NCBI GenBank assembly: GCA_036172245.1
Contig: JAYWIR010000107.1
Span: 1 to 64,000 of the forward strand
DNA length: 64,000 bases
Reading direction: 5' to 3'
From: Raillietiella orientalis
Taxonomy: Eukaryota
Of the stretch, positions 21,915 to 64,000 are shown in pieces (within the stretch, counting starts at the first letter, position 1; each line of letters opens with the position of its first letter). The position numbers were made by a program, and so were the translations under genes. The notes under the pieces were generated by a model, which worked only from the letters and a program-made list of their open reading frames with translations, ran no database searches and was not told where the DNA came from.

Positions 21915-22131
21915 TTTACACCCGGGTACGCCCGGGGCGTTTATTTTTTAAAAAAACAACTCTACATCCGCGGTACAAGGCCCCGCTCACGGCCATATGC
22001 ACTGGACCTGCCGGGACGCCGGGACGCAGCCCATCGTAGCGTTCCTCAGCAGCGAAGGGGGATGGCGATAAAACAAAAAGAAAAATGAAAAACATAAACA
22101 GACAAAAAGAAGTTGGAGGGCAGGGAAGGGA

Positions 22132-33393: not shown

Positions 33394-33486
33394 TGGACAC
33401 CGACGATGTACACAAAACACCACACAGAAGAAAAAGCGCTTTTCTACTACTCTTTGGGGAGTGAAGGAAAAACACGTCCTCCTACT

Positions 33487-34925
33487 AGCCTTGGAGGGGG
33501 CTGGCTGCAACGATGCAGCTAGCTCCTCCGCCGCACACTCAAAGGCGGCGTCATCGATCACGGTCTCGATGACGGACGCTTCCGCCGGTTCGTTCCTCAC
33601 GCTGTTGACATTTTCAACAGTGTGTTGCTCGTCGTTAGCTACGATTTCTACCTTGCGGCGTTCGGCGAGGACGCGTTCCACGACGACGCTGCATTCTTTT
33701 AAATTCTCGCTAACCTGCTCTTTTTTATTTTGGTAGGCGAGCTTTTTTTCAATTCGTCGTTCTTTCTTCGTCTTTTTCTTTTCCGCTGTAGCTTCTCGCC
33801 ATTCCGACACCTGACCGCTTTTGTCGATCTTTTCGGCATTCGTTGCCGCAGTGTCGGCTGAGGCCTGGACCACGGGAGTGGGTGGCACAGCGTGAGCCGC
33901 AGCCTTTGCAGCTAGCCTTTTCTGTAGCAGCCGCGCGCGTTTTTTTAGGTACCTCGCGGAAGCCACGCGCACAGCGGATTGTTGACACACTTCCTTCGTG
34001 TGGCCCATTGTCCCGCATACCTGGCACTGTACGTTGGGGCACGTCCTTTTGAGGTGTCCCGACGTGTTGCAGAAGCCACAGTATTTGGGCTTCCCCACGT
34101 ACCAGAGGTCGACGCTTTCTCCGCCGACCACCAGTTTGTGGGGAAGGGTAGAGCCCTACCGAACGGTTGCACGGGCAGCCGTGAGGCCGCACTGAACAGT
34201 GGTATAGTCCTTGAAAGGACTAGGCTTGGTCCATACTGTATGGATTGTGCCTTCCTTTCCCAACGCGGCGCGTAACTGTTCTTACCGCATCCGCGCGGAA
34301 ACTCCTAAAAGGTGGACCACCATACTGTGGTCCGCCTTAACGGGAAGGAGCTAGCGTGTCCCCATTACCACTGGGGTTTTAAGCAGACCTTGGGCCAGAT
34401 CTGCATGTTTGTAGATCACCTCTACGTACTGCCCCCCGCTACGAATGGAAATAGCGCAGAGCTCCTCTTCTTTAACATCGATAGTGCGCATCCCTTTCGA
34501 GAAGGCGCGCGCACTCTCAGCAGAATACAAATTTCCTACCTTGTAGAATAGTGATGGGTCATACCCCTCTTCCACATAGGCAGATAATTCCGCCGCGGCT
34601 GCAGGCGATGGCGCCGACACGACGGCGCTCCACGCCCGCGATGCTGCGGGGACCGGTTTTGTATGGGGCGGACGCCCCCACCTCCTTCGCCACGGAAGGC
34701 GACGTTGCCGCCGTCCCCTGGCACTCCACCTTTTCTAGAGGCGACGTTGCAGCCGCCACCTGGCACTCCATTTCTTCAGAAGGCGACGTTGCCACCGTCC
34801 CCTGACACGTACTGGTGGTCGCGTCAGGCATTGCTGCCTGATCGACCACCACCACACACGAAGATTACACCTAGGGACGGTTCCCTGCACGAGGAGCACC
34901 GAGAAAACACGTCCGCTCTAGCCGA
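33487..34925 (-). mobile_element. Element D (upstream part): subfamily I 5' end and ORF1 N-terminal two-thirds
   Basis: AELSAYVEEGYDPSLFYKVG, CGFCNTSGHLKRTC; GGACGTGTTTT at 34914-34904; continues at 21914 across the TSD. Confidence 0.9.
34690..34806 (-). repeat. Three 42-nt coding repeats (CQxxxATSP, 14-aa period) near the D ORF1 start
   Basis: ggcgacgttgc recurs at ~34698, 34740 and 34782; A and C appear to carry one unit. Confidence 0.8.
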
Positions 34926-37032
34926 CATAAAGCTTTCGACTGCGTCGACCAGGAACTCCTTCTGGAGCTCCTGGAACACTTGGGATTCCCGGCCTCATTA
35001 GTGGCCTATCTGCGCTCCTGCTGGCGCGACACGCTCATCAACGTTACTTTCAGCGGGCAGACCGTGCACGGCATACCGGTGCGACGCGGCATACGGCAGG
35101 GAGACAGCCTGAGCCCCTTGCTCTTCAGTACCTACTTCGAGCTGATAATGAGAGCGTACAGGGTAACTCTAGCGCACCTCCCTTGCAACTATCCCGGTAC
35201 GCCCGCGGTGTCAGCAAATGCGGACGACCTTCTTCTGCTCCTCCTTATGTCCATCCCGGCATCGGCGGTCGAGGAGTACTTCGACCTGCTGCATCGGGGA
35301 ACAGGACTTACGGTGAACAGTGTGAAGTCGTCCGTGATGCTAGTTGGTGCGACGTGGGCAGGGCAGCAGGACTGGGTCGGTTTGGGGATCCTCACGGTGA
35401 GGTACTTTCAGTAACTCGGCGTACCGATGGGGGATTATCTTCCTTCGGATGCGTGGTCCAGCTGCCTTCAAAAGGTAGGGACGGCGATCGGCCCGTTCCG
35501 AGGCCGCAGGTTTTTCCTGCCTAAACGGGCCGCGGTTTGGAACATGTTCGCGGCTCCTCTCCTCCGCCTCCTGCTTTTGTTTGTCTCACTACAGAGAGGA
35601 TTAAAAAGCGGAGAAAGGACCTCCTCCGTATCGCCCTTTGGGGCAACCGGAGTGCCCGAGTACGCGTAAAGGACTTGTGCGCTGCTCGTCGGGACGGTGA
35701 CGTGGGCCTCCTGACGCTGGTGCGGCTCCAGCTTCAGCTCCAGTTCCGAATGTCGGCACTTGTTCCAGAGTTGTGGTGCACGTGTTGGTGCGTCGCTGCA
35801 AGCCTCCATCTCCAGCAAGCCACCGGCAAGACGGGACTGACGTCGTTTCTTGCACTCCGTCGCCGCGTCAATCGATGCGGACTCCAGCTACGGAGGGTGG
35901 CTTCGCTGTCACGGAAAAACCCAGTATTGGTCACCTGTCGCTCATTCAACGGTAGTGCCTGGTTGCAGGAAGCCGTTCGAACGTGGGGACAGTTCGGCTT
36001 GCAACGCTTTCAACAGGAACGAAGGTTCCTGTTCCAGGGTTACAGAAGTTGCACGCTTCGCGAGATCCTGGAGAACCCAAAGAAGAGAGCGTGGGCAGGG
36101 AGAACCCCCCTCGCTGCTGCGCTGCCCTCCCTGATGGAAGATCTGAACAGCGATGTTTCGGCGAAGTGGGAGGTTTCAGTTACAATCTTCGGGAAGGAGA
36201 AGTAGATAGGAGAGTGGAAGACAGGTCAGCTGACTGACGCTGCCACCGCGGGAACGCCTCCCAATGGACTTCTTCGCTGGGGCGCGCTGTTCGATGTTCC
36301 CATTGAACATCTAAAGTGGCCCCCGGTGCTCATGAACACTTCCGCCCTCCCCTTAAAATGGCAGGAGTCGGCTCTCCTGTTGCAGCACTGGGGACTCCCC
36401 TGCAACGCCCGCCGACACCACTGGACCTGGGGAGCGGTGGACCCCAATTGCGTCAGGTGTGGGGAACGGGAGTCCCTCCCCCACCTGCTAGTGGATTGTT
36501 TTGCCTTTCGGCCCCTTTGGTTTCGCTTTGCTGCGGTCATCGGAATCTTCTGCGGCAACCCCAGGGACGCACTGAAAGCCTTCTTTGTTGCCGACGCCCT
36601 TCGGCCCGCGGCCTCGTTAGCAGCTTTGTGCTGCCTACGCGGGCCCGTCACCGCCTGGAGCAAGGCAACGGGAGGAAAACGCATCCAGGGAGCCATCCAG
36701 CCAGCCTACCAATTCCTGAGGAAGGCGTCCTTATGGCCCCACCTGGATCCAGGAATACAGAAGGAGCTTGCCGGCATCCTGCAAAGGATGCAACGGCTCC
36801 ACCAACAACTGTGATCCCTTCCCTTACCCTCCCAACTTTTCTTTTCTTTTTTGTGTTGTTTTTTGTTTTTCCCACTTCCCCCTGCTGCCGTGGTGGACCG
36901 TACCGGTCTGTGAACCGGTGACCCGGCAGGCTCTGCGTTTGTTCGTGCGTGGCTGGAGCAATGGTCCAGCCACTGCACGTCATTGTAAATGTTTATTAAA
37001 CAATACACGCCCCGGCGAAATGAGGGTGAAAA
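34926..37032 (+). mobile_element. Element L: 3' half of a LINE from HKAFD to the 3' terminus, decayed
   Basis: GIRQGDSLSP, NADDLL, CVRCGERESLPHLLVDC; degenerate terminal motif AATACACGCCCCGGCGAAATGAGGGTG at 37002-37028. Confidence 0.88.
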
Positions 37033-40000
37033 TCGAACGCTTTATGAAGATCAGCTGCGATCGCTAGGGCACCCATACCCGTTCGGCTCTCCCCACCCTG
37101 ACCAGCGCTCACCCTTTAATTGGGGTAGCCGAGAGATCCCTTGCGTTCTTGATTTCCTTGTTGCGCATGGAACCATGTGCGGGCGAGGAACAGGTTAGAC
37201 TCCATACTTCGCCCGGGAACAGTGGATGTCTGTTCCGGGCTAATTATGGATTCGGCTACCTGTTCGAGCCGCGCAGCCCACAGTTTCGCCACCAACTTGA
37301 CGTCCGTATTCACGACAGTGATCGGACGCCAGTTGATTAGCTTACGGAGGTCTCCTCCCTTAGGAAGGAGCCTCATCCTAGCTGACCGGAACGAGGCGGG
37401 AACATCGCCTTCTTTCCGGATCAGCTGTGTCGATCTGTGCACCAAATGGGTTAACTCTGCCGCGAAGCCTTGAAAAAACTCCGCGGGCAGGCCGTCCTCC
37501 CATAGTTCATTCCTCCTCTTGAGCCCTTTCATCGCGGTGACGATTTCACCGGTTGTAAAATGCTCGTCAAGGCTTTCTTTCTCTTCCTCTCCTATGACCG
37601 GGGCTCCTTCCGGGAGCAACAGTCGCGAGGCGTCCTGCTCGGGAGGCGCCCTGTCATACAGGGAGGAATAAAATTTTCTCATAATGTGTCGAATCGCTGA
37701 CGGGGCCGAGTGTTCGCGGTCTTGGTCGTCCAGCAGGGTGGGCGGCCCGGAGTGCCAAGCTTGGCGCTCAGCCCCGGCTCGGTAGTCGGCCAGGCGACGG
37801 ACGTTGGGGGTTCTCGCGTAACGACGTGCGTATGGAAAAGCCCTTTCGTTGCGAGTCCCTTCCTCCAACCCGGAGGGTAGGCGCCCCAGGGGAAACTCCT
37901 CACAGAACTCGCGGACCGAACGCTCGAAAACGTCCCAATCCTCGAGATTCCGGTGGGTGACGCCTCTCAGGAATTGGCGAAGATGATCCGCCTCACCTGG
38001 GAGCCTCGTCCAATCTCCCGGTAGACGCCACGCCCTGGATGGGGGTCCCTTATTGCGTGGCCAGACATCGATCATCAGACGGAAATGGTCGGACAGCGTC
38101 GACAGGAGCCTTCCTCGTATACCGACACGAGTAGACATGTCGTGGTCGAGGAAGACGTGGTAGATGCTGTTCTCCATTCCCGGGTGTCCCTCCATCAAGT
38201 TGCGCGCGCGCATGGCGGAGCACAACTCGATCGGCACGTTGTTTTGAGTGCAGCACGCACCTGAGAGCAAGCAGATGTTAAAGTCCCCGGCTATCAGGTG
38301 GGCCTTGCGCACTCCTGCATCCGTCAGCCAGTCGCGCTTCAGGTACTGGAAGAACTGAGTTCTTCCTGCGTACCCTTTGCTGCCGCTCGGAGCATACACG
38401 TTCGTAACGATGAGATCGATCGTGTCAGACCAGCATAGTCATCTGTCCAACACGACCGTTGTCATCGAAGCGTACGTTCCTCACGGAGGCGTCGACGGCT
38501 GGCTTCAGGAAGAACGCGACACCGCAGGTGTTACGGTCGCCGCATCGCCAATACAACCGAAACCCTGCGATCCTCTCGATCTCCTCGACTTCTCTTGCAG
38601 TGATCACGTGGATCTCCTGCAAAAGCGCCAGGTCGAATTCTCGCAGGGTGTCAGCTGTATCTAGCCTGTTGCCGTCGTTGCGCAGCCCGTTGACATTCCA
38701 ACAGGCAACGCGGATCCTTCGGCGACAGGCGAGCCCAGGGGTTATTCCTGGGAACGTGGCAGTGCGGTTCCCGTCACCTTATCGGGCGGGACGGATGGAG
38801 GAGGGGGTGCATCGCGCTCCAGTTCTTCCTCCTCCATCGAGGCCGATTCGGATACAGGCCTCATCGCGGTGGGCAGGCAGGTATCTCCTACCTGCGCTCC
38901 CTGCTACATGAGGTACAATTCGCCGGCTGGGACGGTCGGTGGAAGTAGGAGGTTGTCACCTACCTGCTCCCCCTCCTCCATCGGGGTTGACAGCTGCTCG
39001 GTCGCGGGGAGTGGAATATTAGCTCCCTCCGTTACCGCGCTGTCGGCTCCCCCTCCGGCTGCCGGTGCGTCCTCATTCTCGTTCTTTGTCGGGAGTCGCT
39101 TCCTAGGATTCTTGGACTTGCGTTCCGTCTTCTTTGGAGGCGCCTCCGCGGAGAAGGACGCACTACCGGCATCCGGATCAGTATCACCTTCTTCAGGTGC
39201 CTTCACCGCGGCCGGCCTTCTCAAGGCTTTTCGCGCGAAAATCTCGTGGCCGACAAGTGCAGCCTCGAGCTCTTCCGCCGCCTGCTCGGAGGCGGCGTCC
39301 TCGATTACGGACAGCGCGTCGTAAGGCTCCACCTCTGTTGTCAGAGAGGGTTCTCCTTCGGTGATCGCGGCTTCCACGCAAACGAGGCGGGGGATGTCTT
39401 CCCCGGTGGTGACCTCTAAGGCCTCCACGCGCTCCAAAGTGACCGAGCTTCCGCGGAGTAGTGCGTGGCGCTCTCTCCTATTCAGAGGTTTCGCCGCTGG
39501 CTTCGCTTTCGTGGCTACGGTTTGCTTTGGTTTCTTTTGCTTCACCGTCCGCCAACCTTCCTCATCAGCGCAGTCGGGAGTTTTCTCGACCGGCGTTTGC
39601 TGAGAGGTTTCGAGGCCTGGCTTCTGGCTACGCCTTGCTGTAGCCTCCTTTGGATCCGAAGTTTTATCCGCGCGTGTCACCTGAGCTTTCTTCAAAGCGG
39701 GGCGACCCAAAGTTACGCGCTTTGGGCACACTTTCCGGAGGTAGTCCTTTTCTCCGCACGAGAAACACTAGATGTGGGGGCACCGTTTTTTCAGATGCCC
39801 TGTCGCATCGCAGTGTCCACAGAACTTGGATTTCCCCACGTACCAGATATCGACCTTTTCGTTGGCGATGTCTAGCTTGTGGGGTAACGAACCGTTCTCA
39901 TGCACGGTTACACGCGCTGCGGCCATGACACTAAACAGCCTTCCATAGGACTGTAAGACGTTGGGCTTGCTCCAAAGCGCGTGAACCGTGCCGAACTTGC

Positions 40001-51880: not shown

Positions 51881-52485
51881 TTACCGCACCCCTCGTAGGA
51901 CTTGGGGAAAACTGCCGAGTCGGCGATGGAGCGACTGCATGCAGCGTGCTTTTGCTCGTCGCGACGCTGCTTTTTACGGCTTTCGTGGCCTTTGCAGAGG
52001 GGCCTGCGCTGCAGTTGGGCTGTCCGGAACTCGGAAGGGAGAACGGAACGGGGCAATAAGTCTTCGCACTGTTGCGATCTTCCTGTTTTCCTACCTTTCC
52101 CTCCATGGTGTTACGCAGATTTCCTGGTTCCTGGCTCGGAGAGGTGCCTGAGTGTTCGGCAGCGAGGGAGTGCACGGCACGCGTCAAATCCTCGCGCCCC
52201 TTTTTAATTGGCTTCCCCGCCGTGACTTCCCCCTTTCGCGACGTTGCGGGCGGGGATGCTTTCTTTTCATCCGCGGATCGCTCGTTTTTTTTTGCCTAGT
52301 TTTTGCAAACGACGTTTTCTATTGCATCCAGTGGCTTGCTCCTCCACACTATCCTGTGTACTCACCATGTTGTACTATGCTACTTGGCAGATACCACAGG
52401 AACACACAAGTGCAAGCTAAAACGCAGGCACAAAGTTGCCCGATCGTTGGCGCCGATGGACGCGCAAACACGTCTGCACTGTACG
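51881..52485 (-). mobile_element. Element H/K upstream part: 5' end plus mid-ORF1 (knuckle region apparently deleted)
   Basis: AGACGTGTTT at 52475-52466; LQKLGKKNERS...GKPIKKG resembles F ORF1 LQKFGKNARR...GEPQKKG. Confidence 0.7.
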
Positions 52486-52632
52486 AGCGCAAAAGATCGG
52501 ACAGATCTCCGGAGGGCGGCTATGGTACAGGTGTGGGAGACCGAAAAGTTGCGGTGTTGCCTACCTGATTCGGCCAGGCGTCAAGGCCGCGGCTCGGGGC
52601 GTGCGGTTCGACGATCACGGTCGTGTAAGCCA
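52486..52632 (+). pseudogene. P0: EN fragment of a subfamily I element (possible continuation of C)
   Basis: AQKIGQISGGRLWYRCGRPKSCGVAYLIRPGVKAAARGVRFDDHGRV follows on from where C stops (EQAQEI). Confidence 0.8.
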
Positions 52633-55580
52633 TTCACACCCGGGTGTGCCGGGGCATTTATTTCTTGGAAATAAAAATACATGGAATATCGCGTGGCGAA
52701 CTCGAAGGTTCACCACTCCAAAACAGCTTGCTGGTTACCGGCTCCATGCCGGAGAGGTCCTTCCGATGCGCGGGGATGGGAAATAAAGAAAAACAAAAAG
52801 AAACAAAAAGTTCAAATGTGGGGGAGGGACCAAATGTTGTAGGGGTGGGAGGGCCGGGAAGGGATCACGGTGCGCGTGGAAAGGTCCTCTAGATCCTATT
52901 CAGGATCCGCACAAGCTGAGTCCTTTCAGCGCCCAAGTGGCGCCACTTGCAGACACTGCGCGCGAAAAGGCGAGTCCAGTGTAAGGCGTTGCCGGTTGGC
53001 TGACGCCTTCTTCTGGTGGCGTTCCAAGCCGCCACTATTCCTCTGATGCAGCAGAGGACTGCTACACTAGGGGGCAGGGACAAGGCGTCACTACAGAAGA
53101 GGCGCCTGAAAACGTCCTTCGGGCCGCATCCACGCAAGTCCAGGATCGCCGCGAGACGATCCCACAGAGGGCGGAGGGCGCTACACTCAAGGAGAAGGTG
53201 GAGGAATGTTTCTTTTTCCCCACACCGGTCACAATTGGGATCCACAGCCCCCCGGGTGGTGTGGTGCAGGCGTGCTTTGAATGGTAATCCCCAGAGTACC
53301 ACAAGCAACGCCACATCCTGCCATTTCAGAGGAAGGGATGCACTGTTCCAGGAAGCTGGGGGCCACTTCATCTCCTCCGGAGATAGTCCGAGTAGCTCAC
53401 CCCAGCGTCGAATTCCGTTGGACGGGACGCTCGGCGTCGCAGCGTCAGCTAGCTGCCGAGATGTCCACGCCTTTATCGATTGTGTCCTGCCGCCTATAGT
53501 GCAGGACACGGTCCATTTCCTCTGCTCGCTACTGTCCCTGGCATTCACAAGGAAGGGCAGCACTGGGGCGAGGGGGGTTATCAAGGCCCACAGAAGCTTG
53601 TCGTGGGACTGCACGATCTCCTGCAGCGTCCAGCGGGCGTGCCTTTTCATACAAGTGTTCCTTGTGCCCGCCGGAACGTGGATCTTTTCCCAGGTGGAGA
53701 CTGACTCGTGCAACCAGGCGGAGTAGTTCCCTGGGAGGCAGGAGATCCAGGCGTTCTCCCGGACCGCAACGAAGATGCGTCGCAGCATAGAGCCACAGTA
53801 TGGTCTTCTGCAGACGCGCGCAGACAGAAACGACAAAAGTCCGCCGATTCCGCAGGCTCGTTGGGCCAGGAGGCGTGCTGGAACGCACCAAGGCGTGTCC
53901 CACAATTCCGCCACAAGGGCAAGAGTCCTGAATCCAAGTTGTAGTTCCATGCGCTCCAGCGTAAGTACGCCAAGTCCACCGTCCTTACGTGGAGCGCACA
54001 AGTCTTTGAGCCTCACACGGGACCTCCCTTTGCCCCAAAGGACTGTCCTCAGGAGGCCCGCTGCTCGTTTTCGGATAAAATAAGGGGCGGGGCAAACAAA
54101 AAGTAGGGGGCGAAGGAGGGGAGCCGCGAACGCGTTCCACACCGCGGCCCGTTCCTGCAAGTAGAACTTGCCTTCTTGGAACGGACTGATCGCCAACGCT
54201 GCCTTTTGGAGACGGTCGGACCAGGCTTCTGCTGCGCAGAAGTCCCCCAACGGTACGCCGAGGTACTTGAAGCACCTGCCCGTGGGGATCCCCAAACGGA
54301 TCCAGTCCGACCGTCCAGCCCACGCCGAAGCGACGAAGACCATGGACGACTTCGCCCTGTTCACCTCCAGGCCCGTCCCGCGGCGCAGCAACTCGAAGAA
54401 GTCCTCGAGTGCACTCGCCGGGGTGGACCCGGGAAGCAGCAGCTGAAGATCGTCTGCATAGGCCGACACGGCAGGCGTGCCGGCACACGAGCTCGGCAGG
54501 GCTGCCAGAGTTACCCTGTATGCCCTCAGCACCAACTCAAAGTAGATGCTGAAGAGCAAGGGGCTCAGGCTGTCACCCTGCCGGATGCCGCGGCGTACGG
54601 GCACGCCGTACACGTGCCGGCCGCTGAAACCAATATTGATTGACGCGTTGCGCCAGCAGGAGCGCAGGTAAGATTGAAGCACGGCAGGGAAACCCATGCG
54701 TTCCAGGAGCTCCAGAAGGAGATCCTGGTCGACGCAGTCGAATGCTTTGTGCAAATTGACCGCGACGGCAAAGGCTCCCGCCGAGTCCATCCCACCCTCT
54801 GCCCGATCTTCTTGGTCAGAGGGGGGCGCGAGGCTCCCTTGACCGTCCTGTGCAACGCGTTGTCGCAACTGCCACCATGAGCTGGCGAGGAGCAGGTTGG
54901 CCTCCATGGTTCGTCCGGGAACAGCATAGGTCTGCTCGGGACTCACCACGGAAGCGGCCACCCGCCCCAAACGCTCAGTCCACAACTTAGCATACAACTT
55001 TGCGTCCGCATTCACTACTGTGATGGGACGCCAGTTGCCAATGTTGCGTAAGTCTCCTGACTTCGGCAGGAGACGTACTTTAGCTGACCGGAACGAGGCT
55101 GGAACTTCGCCGTGTTCGCGGATCAGCGCACTTAACCTGAGCACCAGGGGGGCCAGCTCTGGCGCGAAGCGATGGTAAAACTCCGCGGGCAGGCCGTCCT
55201 CCCCTGGTGCCTTCCTTCTCTTGAGCCTGTTGATGGCGGAGATGATCTCCGCCATCGTGAACGGTTCCGCCAATCTGGAACGGTCCTCCTCCTTGAGTGC
55301 GGGAGCACCATCCGGCAGCAGGCGCTGCGCGAAATGGCGCTCAGGTGTTAGTGGCGCGTACAAGGAGGAATAAAACTCCCGCACGATGCGGCTTACCTGG
55401 GCTGGGCTGGAGCGTTCTTGGCCCTGATGATCCAGCAGGCAGGCCGAGCCTGACTGCCAGGCCTGCCTCTCCGCCTCAGCCTTAAATTCAGCCAGGCGAC
55501 GGACGTCGGGACGCCGGGAATAACGGCGCGCCTGGAGGTACGCCCGCTCGTTCCTGACACCCTTACCGAAGCCCGTGGAC
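52633..55580 (-). mobile_element. Element M1: ORF2 from GFG through RT and Zn motif (open to 52889) plus 3' terminus
   Basis: ORF 52889..55750 from GFGKGVRNER onward; YADD; CDRCGEKETFLHLLLEC; hairpin at 52662-52636. Confidence 0.9.
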
Positions 55581-55621
55581 GCGACCAAAAGACACGTCCG
55601 ATGGACGTGTCTTTTGGTCGC
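55581..55621. repeat. Perfect 19-bp inverted repeat (3-nt spacer) formed from the 5' end of element P1
   Basis: gcgaccaaaagacacgtcc-gat-ggacgtgtcttttggtcgc. Confidence 0.97.
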
Positions 55622-55698
55622 TCCGCCAACGCCTGTCTGGGAAGCAACCGGAGTTTTTTTAGTGTAGTCAGGTGTTAAGTGTGGGTTGTCGGTGTCCG

Positions 55699-57450
55699 AT
55701 GGCAGCCGTGCCAGAGGACACGGCGATGGATGTGGTTGTGGGGGAGGCAAGTCCTACCACAGGACCTACATCTATGGGGGCAATAGTCCCTGGAACGTCT
55801 TCGCAGCCGGCGAAGACTTGGAGTGAAATGGTCGCCGCCCCCAGTGCGGAGGCCATGGCAGAGGAAGCCGCCTATCGGGCCTCTGAATACAAGCCATCGC
55901 TTGTATACAAGGTAGGCCCTTTGTTTGAAGGAAACACGGCGCGCTCTTTCAGCAGAGCGCTACAAAATGCTAATGTCCGTGAGGAAGATCTGGACGGTCT
56001 GTGCGTGCTCAGCGGGGCGCAGCGGGTTGAGCTGGTGTGCAAGAGCATCAGCCTAGCCGATCGCCTTATAAATACCCCGCTGATCATGGACGGCCGTAAG
56101 ATCTTCCCGGTGTCAATGGACCACTCGGTAGTGGTCCACTTGACAGGAATATCCAAGCGCATGACGCGCACTGCCGTAAAAGCAGAATTAAGTAAGTACG
56201 GGGACGTACACGCGCTGTGGCCGAAGCCCACAATCTTTGAGGGCTACGGACGCCACTTCGGGGGCTTGGCTGCGGCACGCGTAACCCCAAAAAACGAAGC
56301 GAAGCTACCCCACAAACTTGAGGTCGCGGGAGAACTAGTAGACCTCTGGTATGCTGGCAAGCCACGGTATTGCGGCTACTGCGATGCGGTCGGACACATC
56401 CGTAAGAGGTGCCCGAACATCGTATGCTACTTGTGCGGGGAGAAGGGACACGTCCGTCGCGTGTGCCCTAAACGCCCCACCCCAATTTCCTCGGCCGCCA
56501 AAAAGGCGCAAGCGAAACGCGCGGGGAAAGAAAAATTAGAAAACCGTGAAACTGGCCGAGAAAAGCTGCCAATAACCCAAGCTTCAAGCGCAGCATCGGA
56601 GAAAAATCTTCCCGAAACCGCAGAGGGTGAACAGGGCTGGCAGCTAGTCAAAGCCAAAAAAGAAAAAAAGGACAAGCATGTCCCGAAGAAAGGAGAGAAG
56701 GCGGCGGCCGGAACAAAAGCTCAATCCGTGTCGCGCGTAAAAACTCTCCGAGAATGCACGGTTACGCTGGAGCGCATTGACGTTCCCGCCGACACCACCG
56801 GAGGCGATACGGCTTCGATCGATTTTCCCGCCGCGACGAATGCGCGCGAAAACCCACCCCCCGTTTGCGAAGAGGGTCAGCCGGACGACAAAATCGCCGA
56901 AACCAAGGACGCAGCCTTCGAGAAGGCCGCCGAGGAGCTTGCGGCAACGCTTGCCGAACGCGAGAACCCTTCGCGAAAGGGGTTGCGTAGGCCGGCAGCG
57001 GCTAAAGTGGCCCCCGCAGGTGAGTCGGACCGGGAGGCCGGAAGTGCATCCTCCTCTGCGGAAGCACCACCAAGGAAAGCGGGGCGAAAATCCCAGAAAC
57101 CCCGAAGGTGCATTGCGCCTCCGCGCGAGGGGGATGCAATGGTGGAGGAACCAGTGGATGGCAGCGTGGGAGCCCAAGTCGGGCATCACCCACGTGCGGA
57201 AGCCGAAGAGGAGGCGACTCCAATGGAGGACGGTAACCAAGGGTCAGCAATGCCCTCTGAAACCGCCGAACCTGAACCACCCGCACCAATGGATGTGGGC
57301 CAACAGGTACGAACAACACCCCCTTCGCACGGGCAGCCGGAGACGTCGGCACGAAAGAAGGATGGGGAGTTGGTGGGCAAGACGCCAACCCCGTCCAGCG
57401 ACCCGCCCCAAAAGGTGGCGGGAGCTCCACCGCCAGGTTCCCAGGAATAA
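55699..57450 (+). CDS. ORF1 of P1 (two CCHC knuckles); open
   Basis: CGYCDAVGHIRKRC, CYLCGEKGHVRRVC; first ATG at 55699. Confidence 0.88.
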   Translation: MAAVPEDTAMDVVVGEASPTTGPTSMGAIVPGTSSQPAKTWSEMVAAPSAEAMAEEAAYRASEYKPSLVYKVGPLFEGNTARSFSRALQNANVREEDLDGLCVLSGAQRVELVCKSISLADRLINTPLIMDGRKIFPVSMDHSVVVHLTGISKRMTRTAVKAELSKYGDVHALWPKPTIFEGYGRHFGGLAAARVTPKNEAKLPHKLEVAGELVDLWYAGKPRYCGYCDAVGHIRKRCPNIVCYLCGEKGHVRRVCPKRPTPISSAAKKAQAKRAGKEKLENRETGREKLPITQASSAASEKNLPETAEGEQGWQLVKAKKEKKDKHVPKKGEKAAAGTKAQSVSRVKTLRECTVTLERIDVPADTTGGDTASIDFPAATNARENPPPVCEEGQPDDKIAETKDAAFEKAAEELAATLAERENPSRKGLRRPAAAKVAPAGESDREAGSASSSAEAPPRKAGRKSQKPRRCIAPPREGDAMVEEPVDGSVGAQVGHHPRAEAEEEATPMEDGNQGSAMPSETAEPEPPAPMDVGQQVRTTPPSHGQPETSARKKDGELVGKTPTPSSDPPQKVAGAPPPGSQE

Positions 57451-58252
57451 CACCTGGACTCGCCTGTCGCCGTCGGATCCGCGCGGCCAGTTGGAATGTT
57501 AACGGGCTGCGCGACGACGGAAACAGACGAGATACAGCAGCCACCTTGCGAGATTTCGACCTGGTACTTTTGCAGGAGATCCACGTGATCACCGCAAAAG
57601 ACGCCCAGGAGATCGAAACGATTGCGGGAGGGCGGTTGTACTGGCGATGCGGCGCCCGCAACACTTGTGGGGTCGCGTTCTTCCTAAAGCCAGCCATTAA
57701 CGCGGCCGTGAAGGGCGTGCGCTTTGGGGACGACGGACGGATCGGCCAACTGATTCTCAGATGGTCCGATTCGATCGACCTCATCGTCACCAATGTGTAC
57801 GCTCCTAGCGGTAAACAGGGATACCAGCAGCGCAACGCGTTACTGGAAACCTTGAAGCGCGAATGGCTGGTGGACGCGGACGTGCGAAAGGCGCATCTGA
57901 TAGCAGGGGATTTCAACGTCCGTCTGCTCTCAGATCAGCCCGGAGCACAGGGTAACGCGATCAACGAGTTGTGCGCCGCCATGCGCGCGCGCAACTTGTT
58001 GACAGAAATAAGCGGGATGGTCAGCAGCGTGGACCACGTCTTCCTCGACGAAGACCTGTGCACACGGGTCGGAAAACGAGGGACACTTGGATCGACGCTG
58101 TCGGACCATTCCCGGTTAATTTTCGAGATGCGGCCTCGCGAAAAAGGACCGCCATCCAGGGACTGGCGTCTGCCGGGAGACTGGACGCGACTCTCAGGTG
58201 CGAAGGAACACCTTCGCGAATACCTGAGAGGCGTCACGCTCTGGAATCTCCA

Positions 58253-61172
58253 TTGAAACCCGGGTGCGCCGGGACGTTTATTCTCACGAATAAACCTGTA
58301 CAACCTGTGACTGGACCAGTAGCCCAGCCACGCCCTGGAAAGATATAGCTTGCCGGGCTACCGGTGCGCAGACCGACGCGGTCGACCTCAGCAGCAGAGG
58401 GGAGGAAGAACGAAACAAAAAGAAAACAGAAAATAAACAAAAATCAGGGAGGGAGCGGGAAGGGATCACACTCTGCTGGGAGGGTCCGTCATCCTCTGGA
58501 GGATGCCGGCAAGCTGTTTCTGCTTGTGTGGTTCCAGATGGGGCCATCGCGTCGCCATCCTGAGGAAACGGGCGGCATACACGTTGGCATCCCTGTCGCT
58601 GGATCCTCCCGTCGCTTTGCTCCATGCCACGACGATCCCGCGTAGGCAGCACAGGGCTGCAAGCGAGGCCGTTGGAGGCAGGGCGTCACGGACGAAGAGG
58701 GGGCGCAAAGCGTCTCTAGGGTTGCCTCCGGGGATCCCCAGGGCTGCGGCAAAGCGTTCCCACAAGGGACGGAGGGCAACACAATCCACTAACAGGTGGG
58801 GGAGGTATTCCCTCTCCCCGCACCTGACACAATTAGGGTTGACACCCCCCCGCGTCCAGTGGTGTCGGCGGGCGTTGCAAGGAAGCCCCCAATGCAACAC
58901 CAGCAGTGCCGACTGTTGCGACTTCATGGGGAGGGTGCGCGAGTCCATGAGCACCGGGGGCCACTCGAGATGTTCCTCTGGAACATCCAGTAGCCCTCCC
59001 CAGCGCAACAGTCCATTTGGGGTGGTCCTCGGGGTCGCAGCGTTGGTGAGCTGACCCGTTCTCCAATCCCCGATCTTCTTTGCCCTGCTGGCGATCTTGA
59101 CAGTAACCTCCCATTGTGCCGCGACGTCGCTGCCCAGATGTTCCCGTAGGGTAGGCAGTACCGCAGCAAGGGAGGTTCTTTGTGCCCACGCTCTCCTTCG
59201 GGGATTCTCGATGATTTCTCGGAGCGTGCGGTGGACATGCGGCCAGAACAGAGCTATTCGCTCGTGTTGCGGGCTCTGCTCCTGAATCATCGCCCACGTG
59301 CGGACGGTTTCCTGCAACCAGGCAGGACCGTTCGCGGGGCGTACGAGGATCCGCGCCGAGTTGTTCTTCACGAGCTTGGCCGCCCTCCGAAGTTGAAGTC
59401 CGCAGTGGCAGATGGGGCTTCGGAGTGCAAAGTAGGACGAGAGTCCCGCATTGCCGGTGGCCCCCTCGACGAGGAGACGTGCAGGGAGGCACCAAGGGGT
59501 GCACCAATTTTCTGCCATAAAGGCAACAACTTGGAACTGGAGCTGTAGCTCCAGCCGCTCCAACGTTACGAGGCCCAGACCACCATCCCGACGAGAAGCG
59601 CACAAGTCCGAAAGACGGACTCGGGGCCTCCCTCTGCCCCAAAGGGCGATCCTCAGGAGGTCCTTCGTCCTCTTCTTTGACTCCGCTGAGGGGGGGCTAG
59701 CAAAAAGCAAGGGGCGAGGGAGGGGAGCCGCAAACGCGTTCCACGCCGCGGCCCGTTCATGCAGGAAGAACCTGCGGTCCTGGAACGGGCCGATCGCCGC
59801 CTGAGCCTTCTGAAGGCAGCCGGACCACGCTTCCGCAGGGGAGTAATCCCCCAACGGCACACCAAGGTACTTGAAGTACCTCACCGTGAGGATCCCCAAA
59901 CGGACCCAGTCCTGCTGCCCTGCCCACGCCGCTCCGACTGGCATTACGGACGACTTCGCCCTGTTCACCGTCAGTCCTGTTCCCCGACTCAGCAGGTCAA
60001 AGAAGTCCTCGACCGCCGAGGCCGGGGTGGACATAGGCAGCAGCAGCAGCAAGTTCGTCCGCGTACGCCGAAACCGCAGGCGTACCGGGACAATCGCACG
60101 GCAGGCGCGCCAGAGTCTTCCTGTACGCTCTCAGCACCAATTCGAAATAGGCGCTGAAGAGCAAGGGGCTGAGGCTGTCTCCCTGCCGTATGCCGCGTCG
60201 CACCGGTACGCCGTACACGGTGGATCCACTAGAAAGAACATTAATAAGCGCGTAGCGCCAGCTGGAGCGCTGGTAAGCCTGCAAAGAGGCCGGGAATCCC
60301 AAGCGTTCCAGAAGCTCCAGAAGGAGATTCTGGTCGACGCAATCGAATGCTTTATGCAAATCGACTGCGACCTTGAGGGCTCCTCTCCCCTCCCGACCAT
60401 CCCGTCCCCCACCGACGGACGCACCGGAATTCCGGTTGCTTATTATGTTCCTTCCTTGTTGGAGCTCTAACCATGTGGAAGCGTGGAACAGGTTCGCCTC
60501 CATACTTCGCCCGGGATCAGCATATGTCTGTTCCGAGCTGATGAAGATGTTGGCGACCCGTCCCAGGCGCTCTGCCCACAGCTTGGCTAGCAACTTGGCG
60601 TCCGCATTCACTATTGTGATGGGACGCCAGTTGTTCATGCTCCTAAGGTCTCCTCCCTTAGGGAGGAGCCGCACCTTTGCTGAACGAAACGAGGTGGGAA
60701 CGTCACCTGTTTCGCGGATCAGCAAGGTGAGCTGATGTACCATGGGAGTAAGCTCTGCCGCGAAAGTTTGATAAAACTCCGCAGGCAGGCCGTCCTCTCC
60801 TGGAGCCCTTCGCCTCTTGAGCTTTCCGATGGCCGAGATGATCTCGCCCATCGTAAAAGGCTCGACGAGGTTCCTTTTCTCCTTCTCCCCGATTGCTGGA
60901 GCACCTTCCGGAAGCAGGAGTCGTGAGACAGTATGCTCCGAAGGCGCCCTGGCGTACAGGGAGGAGTAAAATTTCCTCACTATCCTGCGTTTCCAAGCGA
61001 GAACCGAGTGCTCCCGGCCCTGGTCGTCCAGCAAGCTGGCCGACCCGGATTGCCAGGCTTGCTTCTCGGCTCCCGCTCGATACTCTGCTAACCTGCGCAT
61101 GTCGGGGGTTCTCGCGTAACGTCGGGCCTGAAGATAGCACCTTTCGTTACGCGGCCCCTCCCCAAATCCCTC
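58253..61172 (-). mobile_element. Element M2: ORF2 from GFG to the 3' terminus, one frameshift just after YAD
   Basis: ORFs 59997..61409 (from GFGEGPRN) and 58466..60052; hairpin at 58282-58256. Confidence 0.9.
58256..58282 (-). terminator. Conserved 3'-terminal AATAAA plus CCCGG-loop-CCGGG hairpin; representative of 8 copies
   Basis: AATAAACGTCCCGG-CGCAC-CCGGGTT; equivalents at ~14786, 18812, 21918, 25272, 37002, 41711 and 52636. Confidence 0.8.
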
Positions 61173-61272
61173 TCCTCGAGAGCGGACGTGTTTTTCCGGC
61201 GCTCCGCGAACGAGCAGCGGAAAGCGGTTTTTTTTTGGTTCAGTGTGTGCTTTTTCACATCGTTGGTGTCCG

Positions 61273-63027
61273 ATGGCATCGCTGCCAGAGTACACCACGA
61301 TGGAGGTAGTCGTAAGGGAGGCTAGCCCCCCCCCCCCACGACCTACAGAATCAGCGGCATCCGCCCCGGAATCGCCCTCGTCGCCCAAGACGAGGAGCTG
61401 GAGCGCCATGGTCGCCGCGCCTAGCGCGGAAACCTTGGCTGAGCAAGCGGCCTACAGGGCCTCCGGATATAAATCATCCCTGGTTTATAAGGTAGGAAAC
61501 CTGTTCGACGGTCGCACCGCGCGTGCCTTTAGCAAGGCACTACAGGAATTTCCCGTGCGTGAGGAGGATCTTGACGGCCTCGCCGTACTCAGCGGGGGGC
61601 AACGCGTGGAGGTCGTCTGCAAAGACGTAGCCCTAGCGCAGCGCCTCATCAACACCCCGCTGAATGTGGCTGGCCGAAAGATCCTACCCGTTAGCATGGA
61701 CCGCTCCGTAGTGGTTCATCTAACGGGGATCACGAACCGCATGACGCGTTCTGCGGTGAACGCGGAATTGAGGAAATACGGAGATGTGCACGTGCTGTGG
61801 CCAAAGCCAACCATTTTAGACGGCTATAACAGCCTCTTTGGTGGCCAGGCAGCAGCGCGTGTCACTGTGAACGAGGGTGCCGGGTTACCCCACAAACTGG
61901 AGGTCGGGAAGGAGCCCGTCGACCTCTGGTACGTGGGGAAACCCCGCTATTGTGGCTACTGCGATGCAGTAGGGCATGTGCGCAGGCGGTGCCCGAATAT
62001 CGAGTGCCACTTGTGCGGGGAAAAGGGACACGTCCGTCGTGTGTGCCCTAAACGCCCCACCCCGGTGCCACCTGCTGCCAAAAAGGCACAGGCGAAAAAG
62101 ATGAATAAGGTCGAAAGACCTCATCGCGAGAATGGCCGGCCCCAGCAGCCTTCTCCTCCTCCTCGAACCCAGGCGGCGGCGGAAAAAACCGCGAAAGACG
62201 CGGGCAAGGAAGAAGGATGGACGCTCGTAAAGGCCAGAAAAGAACCCAAAAAGGGTTCGCAAGAGAAGGCGGAGAAAAAGACGGTCGCGAAGGCGAAAAA
62301 ACCTGGTCCGCGATCTAAAACTCTCCGCGAGTGCTCGGTAGCACTGGAGCGCATCAGCGTTCCCGAGGCTGCCACCCGGGGCGACGAGCCTCTTCTCGCC
62401 GTTTCCGCCGCGCCCGACGTTCGCGACGGCGAACCCTCTGTTTGCACAGAGGGTGAAACGCGCGACGCGCTCGCCACCGGCGAGGACGCCGCCTTCGCGA
62501 AGGCGGCGGAGGAGCTCGCGGCCACGCTGGCTGAGCGTGAGAACCCCTCGCGCAAGGCCGTGCGAAGGCCGGCTCCAGTAAAGAATGCCCCCGCAGGTGA
62601 GTTAGAACTGGGGGCCGGAAGTACATCCTCCTCCTCGGAAGCACCCCCCCGGAAGACGGGACGCAAGTCCCAAAAGCCGAGGAAGCGCCTCCCCTCCACG
62701 AACGAGGAGGAGAAGCAGGAAGTCGCCGGCAGCGAGGGAATCCCGGAGGGAGAGCTCCCTCGCGCGGAAGCGGTCGAGCAGGACACCCCCATGGAGGAGG
62801 GTGAGCAGGGGGGCGAAATCCCCCCTGCCGTCGCGGACCCTGAGGAGCCCACCCCTATGGAGGAGGGCCAGCAGGTAGGCGCGACCCCACCTGAGGGTGA
62901 ACCGCCCGACGCGCCGTCACCGATGGAAGAGGGTGACCAGGTGCTAGAGGCACCTGTCCCTCCTCCTCCACCTAGCGTCCCGCCCCAACAGGTGGCGGAC
63001 GCCGCACAGCCGATTTTCCAGGAATAA
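61273..63027 (+). CDS. ORF1 of P2 (two CCHC knuckles); open
   Basis: CGYCDAVGHVRRRC, CHLCGEKGHVRRVC; first ATG at 61273. Confidence 0.88.
   Translation: MASLPEYTTMEVVVREASPPPPRPTESAASAPESPSSPKTRSWSAMVAAPSAETLAEQAAYRASGYKSSLVYKVGNLFDGRTARAFSKALQEFPVREEDLDGLAVLSGGQRVEVVCKDVALAQRLINTPLNVAGRKILPVSMDRSVVVHLTGITNRMTRSAVNAELRKYGDVHVLWPKPTILDGYNSLFGGQAAARVTVNEGAGLPHKLEVGKEPVDLWYVGKPRYCGYCDAVGHVRRRCPNIECHLCGEKGHVRRVCPKRPTPVPPAAKKAQAKKMNKVERPHRENGRPQQPSPPPRTQAAAEKTAKDAGKEEGWTLVKARKEPKKGSQEKAEKKTVAKAKKPGPRSKTLRECSVALERISVPEAATRGDEPLLAVSAAPDVRDGEPSVCTEGETRDALATGEDAAFAKAAEELAATLAERENPSRKAVRRPAPVKNAPAGELELGAGSTSSSSEAPPRKTGRKSQKPRKRLPSTNEEEKQEVAGSEGIPEGELPRAEAVEQDTPMEEGEQGGEIPPAVADPEEPTPMEEGQQVGATPPEGEPPDAPSPMEEGDQVLEAPVPPPPPSVPPQQVADAAQPIFQE
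62785..62945 (+). repeat. Three ~66-nt coding repeats (PMEEGxQ, 22-aa period) at the ORF1 C-terminus
   Basis: TPMEEGEQGG / TPMEEGQQVG / SPMEEGDQV; the same triplet is in E (31730-31885) and degenerate in P1. Confidence 0.8.
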
Positions 63028-64000
63028 CACCTGGGCTCGCCTGTCGCCATCGAAACCGCGTGGTTAGTTGGAACGTCAACGGGCTGCGCGACGACGGCAA
63101 CAGACGAGATACGGCCGACACCCTGCGTGACTTCGACCTGGCCCTGCTGCAGGAGATCCACGTGATCACCTCGGCAGACGTCCAGGAGATCGAGGCGATC
63201 GCGGGGGGTCGACTGTATTGGCGATGCGGCGCCCGCAACACCTGCGGGGTCGCGTTCTTCGTCAAGCCGGCCATCGACGCTGCCGTGAAGGGCGTACGCT
63301 TTGATGACGACGGTCGGGTCGGTCAGCTGATTCTCAGCTGCTCCGACTCGATCGAATTGATCGTCACGAACGTGTACGCCCCGAGCGGAAAAGGGGGATA
63401 CAGCGACCGTACCAGGCTGCTGGAAACCCTGAAACGCGATTGGCTGGCAGACACGAATGTGCGGAAGGCACACCTGATAGCTGGAGTCTTCAATCTCCGT
63501 CTGCTGTCAGGTGAGCCCGAAGCACCAGAACGCACGGCCAACGAGTTGTGCGCTGCCATGCGCACGCGCAACTTGTTGGCAGACGCGGAGGGAATGGACC
63601 GCAGCATCGACCACTTCTTCCTGGATGTCGACCTGTGCTCGCGGGTCGGCAAACGGGGAAAAGTTGCGTCGACGCTGTCGGACCATTCCAGGATCATCGC
63701 CGAGGTTTGCCCGCGCGACAAAGGACCCCCGTCCAGGGCGTGGCGGCTGCCTGGGGACTGGACGCGGCTCTCAGGTGCGAAAGAACGCCTTCGCGAATTC
63801 CTGAGAGGCGTCACCCTCCGCAGTCTCCAAGACTGGGACCTCTTCAAGGCCTCGGTCCGCGAGTTCTGCGAGGAGTTTCCCCTGCAGCGCCTGCCCCCCG
63901 GATTCGGGGAGGGGGCTCGGAACCAGCGGGCTTATCTACAGGCCCGCCGGTACGAGAGGACCCCGAATGTCCGTCGCCTCGCGGAATATCGAGCCGGGGC

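What the first reader, a model, noticed from the sequence alone, without database searches (positions are those of the whole stretch)
61160..61190. Subfamily II reuses a second site: antisense just before GFG in the EN-RT linker
Seen: the 5' ends of P1 (~55580) and P2 (~61173) both abut an opposite-strand ORF2 that begins within a few nt of the codon before GFG (xGFGKGVRN and EGFGEGPRN). The two hosts, M1 and M2, are clearly different copies. P2 itself continues past its own GFG (~63900), which argues against a twin-priming inversion of one element. Subfamily II also occurs at other sites (E in ORF1, G in EN), so this is a preference rather than an absolute rule. Inference: subfamilies partition target sites along a shared host element.
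Basis: partly seen in the sequence, partly recalled or inferred. Interest (0 to 1): 0.8.

Follow-up and report, generated by a model that had tools for sequence, protein, structure and literature searches.

The report
LINE copies homing antisense into LINEs
In a dense island of LINE retrotransposons, two independent full-length copies sit head-to-head against older copies cut at the same "GFG" codons, which points to site-preferring insertion of LINEs into other LINEs rather than chance or a single inverted element.

Summary
Two full-length plus-strand LINE copies (P1, P2) each abut a minus-strand ORF2 copy (M1, M2) cut within 0-5 nt of the first G codon of GFG, in the EN-RT linker.

The two junctions are independent events. 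M1/M2 and P1/P2 differ by about 28% in nucleotides, with dN/dS 0.24-0.32, so they diverged as active lineages. They are not decayed duplicates.

A single inverted element (twin priming) is rejected for both units: neither M matches the lineage of its P.

The window holds a parallel case that shows the mechanism. Copies of another subfamily (D, J, S) abut antisense ORF2 copies cut at the RT motif HKAFD. There a 3' junction lies 15 nt away, and the host's other half lies beyond the insert, as expected for a nested antisense insertion with a target-site duplication.

The best reading is site-preferring, orientation-fixed insertion of LINE sub-lineages into conserved coding motifs of related LINEs, which builds Russian-doll nests.

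Limits: n = 2 for GFG. The matching 3' junctions lie beyond the window. No genome and no close relatives could be searched, so genome-wide enrichment is untested.

I rate it a new variant of a known kind: target-specific L1/Tx1-like LINEs and Zepp-like nested islands.

The parts
52469..52632 (+). R: EN fragment (EN aa ~62-116), cut where M1's 3' terminus is attached; the outermost visible host of the right-hand nest.
   Evidence: tblastn; 75.6% identical to F; end defined.
52633..55573 (-). M1: ORF2 copy from GFG (55565-55573) to its 3' terminus (52633). The reading frame is open over the whole GFG-to-stop stretch (894 aa, 52892-55573) and stays open a further 60 codons into P1's antisense 5' region.
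   Evidence: Pfam RVT_1 and a weak zf-RVT match.
55574..55602 (.). Junction-1 filler: 55574-55580 is of uncertain origin (a possible 5-nt host match). 55581-55599 is a perfect inverted copy of P1 nt 1-19, followed by the loop 55600-55602. It looks like a snap-back at the cDNA end.
55603..58252 (+). P1: begins at the conserved 5'-terminal GGACGTGT but lacks the usual 8-nt prefix. It has an intact ORF1 (583 aa) and EN up to aa 285, and is cut 71 nt before its own GFG by M2's 3' terminus.
58253..61169 (-). M2: ORF2 copy from GFG (61161-61169) to its 3' terminus (58253), with one frameshift near 60000-60130.
61170..61175 (.). Junction-2 filler of 6 nt; its first 5 nt are the inverted complement of nt 3-7 of P2's 5' prefix.
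61176..64000 (+). P2: full 5' terminus (prefix 61176-61183, GGACGTGT from 61184), intact ORF1, and EN that reads through its own GFG (63900-63908) to the window end.
16894..16915 (.). Sister hotspot, 5' junction: C (minus) starts at the HKAFD codons and abuts D's 5' terminus (prefix 16900-16907, GGACGTGT from 16908).
34907..34940 (.). Sister hotspot, 5' junction: J's 5' terminus (minus strand, 34907-34922), a 3-nt filler, then K (plus strand) starting at the HKAFD codons (34926).
37024..37046 (.). Sister hotspot, 3' junction: K's 3' terminus ends at 37031, and L (minus strand) ends right after its HKAFD codons (37032-37046). This implies a 15-bp target-site duplication.
733..917 (.). S|T: a degenerate third junction of a D/J-type 5' end with an antisense RT copy starting at HKAFD (about 862).
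21916..33504 (-). Clean nested controls. G (21916-25266) and I (31176-33504) are one element of P2's lineage, inserted in sense into ORF1 of J/F with an 11-bp TSD. It is itself split at EN aa 172/173 by the full-length element H (25280-31175) with an 8-bp TSD.

Best explanation
P1 and P2 are two separate, recent, full-length insertions of one LINE clade. Each went in antisense into the EN-RT linker of an older ORF2 copy of another lineage, at the GFG codons. The mechanism is target-primed reverse transcription (TPRT) with a strong site and strand preference.

Shown:
- The family is an ORF1(CCHC) + APE-endonuclease + RT LINE with fixed termini. The 5' end is GGACGTGT followed by a T-run, usually after an 8-nt prefix. 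The 3' end is a GC hairpin ending in ..AA, with no poly(A).
- It makes short target-site duplications (8 and 11 bp in two clean nested cases).
- Both GFG junctions are at the same place to within 5 nt.
- The four copies come from lineages that diverged under purifying selection.
- Neither M is the continuation of its P.

Inferred:
- The P-clade RNP nicks the host's sense strand some 8-15 nt downstream of the start of GFG and primes its cDNA there.
- The second cut falls just before GFG.
- The host's EN/ORF1 half therefore lies, antisense, beyond P's 3' end, to the right of the window.

The inference rests on the sister site HKAFD (RT motif A region). There, 5' junctions and a 3' junction lie 15 nt apart, and both host halves flank the insert.

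Because the targets are protein-constrained motifs, they stay recognisable in diverged lineages and are best preserved in young copies. This would explain the Russian-doll order R > M1 > P1 > M2 > P2 on the right, and L/C > D/K > J/F > G/I > H on the left.
For: Junction anatomy.

Independence: dN/dS is 0.24-0.32 for M1 vs M2 and 0.24-0.27 for P1 vs P2, 0.18 for D vs J and 0.19 for K vs C. ORF1 is intact in P1, P2, I and H, with 0 stops, and M1 has no stop from GFG to its stop codon (894 aa).

Lineage mismatch: P1 is 86% and P2 82% identical to G upstream of GFG, but M1 is 62/68% and M2 68/73% identical to G downstream (100/400 nt). Uninterrupted pairs keep or raise their likeness across GFG: P2-G 82 to 83, L-G 73 to 75, H-N 70 to 82. 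P2 and M2 overlap directly at only 71%.

TPRT signature: H lies in G/I with an 8-bp TSD. G/I lies in J/F with an 11-bp TSD, and the D coordinates of the two J/F halves overlap by 13 nt.

Sister site: 3 of 3 D/J/S-clade 5' ends abut antisense copies that start at HKAFD. K's 3' end abuts L, which ends right after HKAFD. In both evaluable cases the host's upstream half sits on the far side of the insert in the right orientation (L for C, D for K). K carries an 88-nt stretch 92% identical to J/F, which fits D and K being one subfamily-I element.

Clustering beyond chance: P = 0.001.

Subfamily-site association: ORF1 tree.
Against: There are only two GFG junctions, and both are 5' junctions. No 3' junction at GFG exists among the 8 3' termini in the window.

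I (the G/I element) lies inside the P1-P2 clade but sits in sense in ORF1 of J/F. B, placed with that clade only by nucleotide likeness, follows C's 3' end. So at most 2 of 3-4 clade members use GFG.

Seven copies with an intact GFG site are uninserted.

The target sequences at GFG, HKAFD and the other junctions share no evident nick-site motif; I judged this by eye.

The presumed TSD of the L/C host matches at only 11 of 15 positions.

M2's 3' end enters P1 71 nt before GFG, not at it.

Parts of the island do not resolve into simple nests: nothing of O is found beyond N's insertion, B's 3' part is missing at 13072, and there is a D-K gap that needs an assumed 1.7-kb target deletion by E.
Confidence: 0.6

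Rival explanations
1. Head-to-head co-insertion in one event (twin priming with two different RNAs). Both ends of one staggered break prime cDNA, M from one end and P from the other, and the two cDNAs are joined in the middle. M would then be a truly 5'-truncated copy with no other half.
For: The M|P order and polarity are those of a twin-priming product. In unit 1, P1 stops 71 nt before GFG while M1 starts at GFG, as in an inversion with a small deletion. The fillers and the 19-nt snap-back show that a cDNA 3' end was joined there.
Against: It does not explain why M is cut at the same codon twice, nor why C, K and T are all cut at HKAFD. Seven copies read through GFG, so there is no general RT stop there. 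At HKAFD the 'truncated' copies do have their other halves beyond the insert (L for C, D for K), and K's 3' end lands 15 nt from the cut. This model would have to call that coincidence. P1's end at 58252 is M2's 3' junction, not a free inversion end.
Confidence: 0.15
2. Host hotspot rather than insert specificity. GFG and HKAFD are places where LINE DNA is easily nicked or broken (through structure, transcription or repair), and any LINE lineage can use such breaks. The subfamily-site link would be a small-sample accident.
For: No common nick-site motif is visible among the junctions (by eye). I, a P-clade member, and B, its near relative by nucleotide likeness, sit elsewhere. There may be a third cluster of junctions at EN aa ~107-117: L's 5' end at O and M1's 3' end at R, about 30 nt apart.
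Against: Sites and clades match perfectly for the 5 junctions at the two sharp sites: 3 D/J/S at HKAFD and 2 P at GFG. Orientation is always antisense. The TSDs and defined termini are those of ordinary EN-driven TPRT.
Confidence: 0.13
3. One ancestral M|P composite was copied at the DNA level (tandem duplication of a 5.6-kb unit), and the copies then diverged.
For: 53868-58252 aligns colinearly with 59472-63829 through the junction at 71%. The units lie in tandem.
Against: The divergence carries a strong signature of purifying selection (dN/dS 0.24-0.32, dS > 1), and the frames are open: M1 has no stop over its 894 codons from GFG to its stop codon, and ORF1 of P1 and P2 is intact. The fillers differ completely (29 nt with a snap-back vs 6 nt). 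P1 stops before GFG, while P2 runs through it.
Confidence: 0.05
4. Each M+P pair is a single element inverted by classical twin priming on one RNA. The same test covers the alternative pairing in which P1+M2 would be one element with an inverted 3' half.
For: In unit 1 the break positions nearly match (GFG-71 and GFG).
Against: Lineage mismatch across the junction for M1/P1, M2/P2 and P1/M2, judged against controls that keep their likeness across GFG. The P2/M2 overlap is only 71% identical. The same break recurs in independent events.
Confidence: 0.03

Closest known systems
Zepp (Chlorella/Coccomyxa) and Zepp-like ZeppL (Chlamydomonas) L1-clade LINEs that form nested, putatively centromeric clusters
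   Same: A dense island of nested LINE copies that is much more GC-rich than the flank: 55-64% against 43-49% here, compared with Zepp at 61% against 53% (PMC3446292, passages read). New copies go into old copies. The published work calls the structure of these regions in need of further study (PMC9940879, passages read).
   Different: Membership is untested because no Zepp sequence was available. From recall, Zepp copies carry poly(A) tails; these copies have none. I found no statement in the passages read that Zepp insertions use fixed codons and a fixed antisense orientation. The two primary Zepp papers are not held, so such a statement could exist there.
Target-specific APE-type LINEs: the Tx1 group of the L1 clade (Tx1L in the Tx1D transposon, elements in snRNA, 5S and tRNA genes) and R1, TRAS and SART
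   Same: Same enzyme layout: APE EN, RT and a zinc-binding C-terminal region. Xenopus Tx1 is among the database relatives. Insertion is at a fixed position and in a fixed orientation in a multicopy target, and different lineages use different sites.
   Different: Here the target is the coding sequence of related LINEs themselves, on the antisense strand. The preference is not absolute. What I say about the Tx1-group targets is recalled; the papers in the listing were seen only as titles and abstracts.
L1 twin priming (5' inversion)
   Same: Head-to-head arrangement of a 5' part and a 3' part, with filler and a small deletion at the joint.
   Different: The two parts come from different lineages, and the break recurs at the same codon in independent events. 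The description of twin priming is recalled.
Cnl1 subtelomeric LINE arrays of Cryptococcus
   Same: A LINE that accumulates in arrays of its own copies (bioRxiv 10.1101/2021.08.11.455996, passages read).
   Different: The passages read describe no codon-level site or antisense rule. The arrays are subtelomeric. Relatedness was not tested.

Membership tests
APE-type non-LTR retrotransposon (L1/Tx1-like) | ORF2 with an APE endonuclease followed by a reverse transcriptase | tested here: met
   PF03372, E = 2e-9, on P2 62976-63998. PF00078, E = 1.3e-20, on M1. Both lie in one frame in P2 and in G, H, L and N.
APE-type non-LTR retrotransposon (L1/Tx1-like) | C-terminal zinc-binding domain (zf-RVT), typical of the L1/Tx1 group | tested here: inconclusive
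   PF13966 scores 25.8 bits, below the curated cut-off of 27.5. Most database relatives carry it.
APE-type non-LTR retrotransposon (L1/Tx1-like) | ORF1 with CCHC zinc knuckle(s) | tested here: inconclusive
   PF00098 scores 20.5 bits against a cut-off of 20.8. Two CX2CX4HX4C motifs are visible in the translations.
APE-type non-LTR retrotransposon (L1/Tx1-like) | Target-site duplications flanking insertions | tested here: met
   8 bp for H in G/I. 11 bp for G/I in J/F.
APE-type non-LTR retrotransposon (L1/Tx1-like) | Poly(A) or simple-repeat 3' tail | tested here: not met
   All 8 of 8 3' termini end in a GC hairpin plus 4-5 nt ending in AA, with no A-run.
Target-specific LINE | Most copies of a lineage sit at one target position in one orientation | tested here: inconclusive
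   P clade: 2 of 3 visible 5' ends at GFG antisense (2 of 4 with B). D/J/S clade: 3 of 3 at HKAFD antisense. The numbers are small and come from one window.
Target-specific LINE | Matching 5' and 3' junctions with a constant TSD at the site | tested here: inconclusive
   HKAFD: the 5' and 3' junctions lie 15 nt apart, and the L/C duplication matches at 11 of 15 positions. GFG: the 3' junctions are outside the window.
Target-specific LINE | The endonuclease cleaves the target sequence specifically | not testable with these tools
   Needs a biochemical nicking assay.
Zepp / ZeppL | Phylogenetic placement within the Zepp clade of L1 | not tested
The closest database protein is an unnamed metagenome fragment at 65% identity.
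Zepp / ZeppL | Clusters of nested copies, GC-rich relative to the genome | tested here: met
   Nests up to five deep. GC is 55-64% in the island against 43-49% in the flank.
Zepp / ZeppL | One cluster per chromosome / centromeric location | not testable with these tools
   No genome is held.
Twin-priming inversion | The inverted and direct parts derive from one RNA | tested here: not met
   Lineage mismatch across both junctions, and a P2/M2 overlap of 71%.

The most novel reading that the evidence does not exclude
Sub-lineages of one LINE family have each evolved to home, in antisense, into a different protein-constrained motif of the family's own ORF2: the GFG linker, HKAFD in RT motif A, and perhaps a GRVGQ stretch in EN. 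Each new copy would then preferentially split the youngest intact copy of a rival or sister lineage. This would give a self-confining mechanism that builds Zepp-like (possibly centromeric) LINE islands. It would also be a form of competition between transposon lineages in which conserved codons serve as homing sites.
Probability: 0.4. Interest if true: 0.75.

Novelty: new variant of a known kind. Interest (0 to 1): 0.6.

Why it matters
Nested LINE islands such as the Zepp and ZeppL clusters are known, and some are thought to mark centromeres. How new copies find old ones is not explained in the work I could read. A codon-level, strand-specific and lineage-specific site preference would give a concrete, testable mechanism for how such islands arise and stay confined.

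It would also be an example of transposons using one another's conserved coding motifs as safe landing sites. Finally, it would offer a natural set of related APE endonucleases with different target preferences.

Tried and rejected
No genome is held for the window, so the 3' junctions and a genome-wide table could not be obtained.

Earlier scan notes by place and by sequence returned nothing.

The ORF1 alignment gave 83 pattern matches, none confirmed. The RT alignment gave 6 loci, all only 25-38% identical and so not the same family. They were not analysed further.

The only close protein relative, P0001 (65% identical), is an internal RT fragment that reads through HKAFD and says nothing about junctions.

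One sequencing run (X1) holds 18% of the sampled words. Its short contigs (mostly about 300 nt, 90-99% alike) were laid on 50000-64000. The tables shown do not say whether any contig bridges 55573/55603 or 61169/61184, so the run neither supports nor questions the junctions. Its uneven depth was not interpreted.

I tested whether the 5' UTRs of P1, P2, D and J share homology with either strand of the target regions, which could give a homology-driven 5' junction. All 14 comparisons scored within the range of shuffled controls, so I rejected this.

Also rejected: single-RNA twin priming, the pairing P1+M2, and DNA-level duplication of a composite.

Two rows of the ORF1 tree (B and L) were translated in the wrong frame and are ignored. 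B's affinity to P2 and I rests on nucleotide identity of 74-76%. One dN/dS row (P2 vs I) was out of frame and was redone. The K vs M2 row may be misaligned and is not used.

Literature searches found no description of codon-specific antisense insertion of LINEs into LINEs. The two primary Zepp papers are not held, so I cannot say that it is not in print.
Full report
WHAT THE WINDOW IS

From about 13.07 kb to its right end, the window is a dense island of non-LTR retrotransposon copies. GC is 55-64% in the island and 43-49% in the left flank.

The elements carry three coding parts:
- an ORF1 with two CCHC knuckles;
- an APE-type endonuclease (PF03372);
- a reverse transcriptase (PF00078), followed by a weak zf-RVT match.

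The nearest named database relatives are L1/Tx1-type elements, all at 31% identity or less (Xenopus Tx1 28%). One unnamed metagenome fragment reaches 65%. No genome is held for the window.

I labelled the copies from a tblastn map. Protein coordinates follow two reference translations: P2's EN, where GFG is at aa 309-311, and M1's RT, where GFG is at aa 61-63.

TERMINI AND INTEGRATION SIGNATURE

A motif scan listed 17 matches. Eight are full 5' termini: D, P1, P2, L, J, I, H and B. All eight begin GGACGTGT followed by a T-run. Most have a similar 7-9-nt prefix upstream.

Eight 3' termini (K, M2, M1, N, H, G, E, C) end in a GC hairpin plus a few bases ending in AA. None has poly(A).

Two nested insertions are clean:
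- H, a full-length 5.9-kb copy, splits one element into G and I at EN aa 172/173 with an 8-bp duplication.
- The G/I element sits in ORF1 of J/F with an 11-bp duplication. The two halves of J/F map to overlapping positions of the related copy D.

The family therefore integrates as expected for target-primed reverse transcription, with short TSDs.

THE OBSERVATION

Junction 2:
- M2's GFG codons are 61161-61169 on the minus strand.
- Six filler bases follow.
- P2's 5' terminus then starts at 61176, with GGACGTGT at 61184.

Junction 1:
- M1's GFG is 55565-55573.
- The filler is 55574-55602. It contains a perfect 19-nt inverted copy of P1's first 19 nt and a 3-nt loop. I read this as a snap-back of the cDNA end.
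- P1 starts at 55603.

Against six copies that run through GFG, M2's homology begins at the first G codon and M1's begins 0-5 nt before it. A seventh uninterrupted copy is F. P2 reads through its own GFG at 63900 to the window end. Its coordinates for the two 5' ends are slightly off.

ARE THE TWO JUNCTIONS INDEPENDENT?

The two M|P units align colinearly through the junction at 71%, which raised the possibility of a duplicated composite. The divergence, however, carries the mark of purifying selection:
- M1 vs M2: dN/dS 0.24-0.32, with dS above 1.
- P1 vs P2: dN/dS 0.24-0.27.

The frames are also open. M1 has no stop over its 894 codons from GFG to its stop codon, and ORF1 of P1 and P2 is intact. 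The fillers are unrelated. The four copies therefore come from long-separated active lineages and were inserted separately.

ONE INVERTED ELEMENT?

For uninterrupted pairs, likeness upstream of GFG is matched or exceeded downstream:
- P2-G: 82% then 83%.
- L-G: 73% then 75%.
- H-N: 70% then 82%.

The M|P units do not behave this way. P1 is 86% and P2 82% identical to G upstream. M1 is only 62/68% and M2 68/73% identical to G downstream (100/400 nt). P2 and M2 overlap directly at 71%. So neither M is the continuation of its P, and M2 is not the continuation of P1. Classical twin priming on one RNA is rejected.

THE SISTER SITE THAT SHOWS THE MECHANISM

D, J and a degenerate copy S form one ORF1 clade. 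P1, P2 and I form another. All three 5' ends of the D/J/S clade abut an antisense ORF2 copy that starts at the codons for HKAFD, in the RT motif A region:
- C at 16894;
- K at 34926;
- T at about 862.

D vs J and K vs C also diverged under selection (dN/dS 0.18 and 0.19).

K's 3' terminus ends at 37031. It abuts L, a minus-strand copy that runs from its 5' end to just after its own HKAFD codons at 37032-37046. The 5' and 3' junctions are thus 15 nt apart, as for a 15-bp TSD.

The host halves lie where a nested antisense insertion puts them. L is the upstream half and C the downstream half of one host. D is the upstream half and K the downstream half of the next.

Two caveats apply:
- The L/C duplication matches at 11 of 15 positions.
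- The D-K gap needs one assumed event: insertion of the 5'-truncated copy E with about 1.7 kb of target deletion.

An 88-nt stretch of K that is 92% identical to J/F supports K belonging to D's subfamily.

STATISTICS

I placed eight junctions uniformly on a 5.6-kb element in two orientations. Two or more coincident pairs within 10 nt occur in 0.1% of trials. With nine junctions, four or more pairs occur in about 0.001%.

Overall junction tally:
- 5' ends: 6 of 9 (the eight plus S) abut antisense LINE copies, 2 abut sense copies, and 1 follows another copy's 3' end.
- 3' ends: 5 of 8 abut antisense copies.

BEST EXPLANATION

P1 and P2 are nested antisense insertions with a site preference for the GFG codons of other lineages' ORF2.

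Predicted but not seen: the host's EN/ORF1 half, and a short repeat of the GFG codons, beyond each P's 3' end. On the same reading, M2's 3' end is an antisense insertion into P1, 71 nt before P1's GFG. That gives the nest R > M1 > P1 > M2 > P2.

The left nest, L/C > D/K > J/F > G/I > H, shows the same tendency for each newcomer to enter the previous newcomer. This fits a sequence-dependent target, because intact young copies keep the best sites. That last step is inference.

WHAT SPEAKS AGAINST IT, AND WHAT IS OPEN

- There are only two GFG junctions, and both are 5' junctions.
- Within the P clade, I is inserted elsewhere and in sense. B, a near relative by nucleotide identity, sits elsewhere too.
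- Seven intact GFG sites are unused.
- I see no shared nick-site motif between sites (by eye).
- The 5' UTRs share no homology with the targets, so the junction is not homology-driven.
- Parts of the island do not resolve into simple nests.
- A possible third cluster of junctions lies at EN aa 107-117 (L's 5' end at O, M1's 3' end at R). It is loose, with about 30 nt of overlap.

Rivals kept:
- Head-to-head co-insertion of two RNAs.
- A host hotspot independent of the insert's lineage.

EXTERNAL EVIDENCE

None helped. Two metagenome scans found no close relatives. One coded run held part of the sequence, but its short contigs do not settle the junctions. Earlier scan notes were empty.

COMPARISON WITH WHAT IS KNOWN

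Nested, GC-rich LINE islands are described for Zepp in Coccomyxa (PMC3446292, passages) and for ZeppL in Chlamydomonas (PMC8226300 and PMC9940879, passages). [quoted passage not shown]

Target-specific APE-type LINEs are well known. What I say about Tx1-group targets and about twin priming is recalled, not read here.

In the passages read and in four searches, I found no report of lineage-specific antisense insertion into conserved codons of related LINEs. The two primary Zepp papers could not be read.

I rate the finding a new variant of a known kind, with interest 0.6. The pattern is striking and independent of chance duplication, but it rests on one window and small numbers.

Noticed in passing
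window 55581-55621: A perfect 19-bp inverted repeat with a 3-nt loop, exactly at P1's 5' end. The left arm is an inverted copy of P1 nt 1-19. It looks like a snap-back of the first-strand cDNA before joining. Junction 2 has a 5-nt version of the same thing (61170-61174 against 61178-61182).
   Followed up: partly
window 40632-40660 and 52600-52646: A possible third recurrent site in EN (aa ~107-117, around GRVGQ). L's 5' end abuts O, which starts there. M1's 3' end abuts R, which ends there. The overlap is about 30 nt, looser than at GFG and HKAFD.
   Followed up: partly
window 20518-20605 and 36731-36818: An 88-nt stretch at the end of J/F is 92% identical to K's ORF2 end, while other copies are about 70% alike. 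J/F jumps from RT aa ~78 straight to this stretch, which is an internal deletion of about 2.5 kb. It is then cut by the 5'-truncated copy E.
   Followed up: partly
window 14771-14783: C's 3' terminus is followed, after 12 filler bases, by B's full 5' terminus in the same orientation (tail-to-head). B itself stops at 13072 in ORF1, where the island ends. B has 11 stop codons and looks old.
   Followed up: no
window 46968-51619 (+), with 46579-46728: Q is a near full-length LINE of a different, distant family: 24-28% protein identity to the island's ORF1, EN and RT. It has a 75-nt tandem duplication upstream. The stretches 45575-46500 and 51900-52469 match nothing else in the window.
   Followed up: no
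window 2548-4122 (-): In the AT-richer flank there are degenerate open frames with a C2H2-like zinc-finger motif and RT-like motifs. This looks like the remnant of yet another non-LTR element.
   Followed up: no
window 59997-61451 (-): M2's frame stays open for about 94 codons upstream of GFG, running antisense through P2's 5' UTR and the start of ORF1, and includes a Met. M1's frame likewise extends 60 codons into P1. This is probably a by-product of GC-rich antisense sequence.
   Followed up: no
run X1 laid on window 50000-64000: One contig of the coded run joins a P2-like EN position (63208) to an M2-like 3' terminus (58258) with 13 other letters between them. That is close to where E's 3' end enters D (EN aa 72) in the window. 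It may be another recurrent site in a related genome.
   Followed up: no
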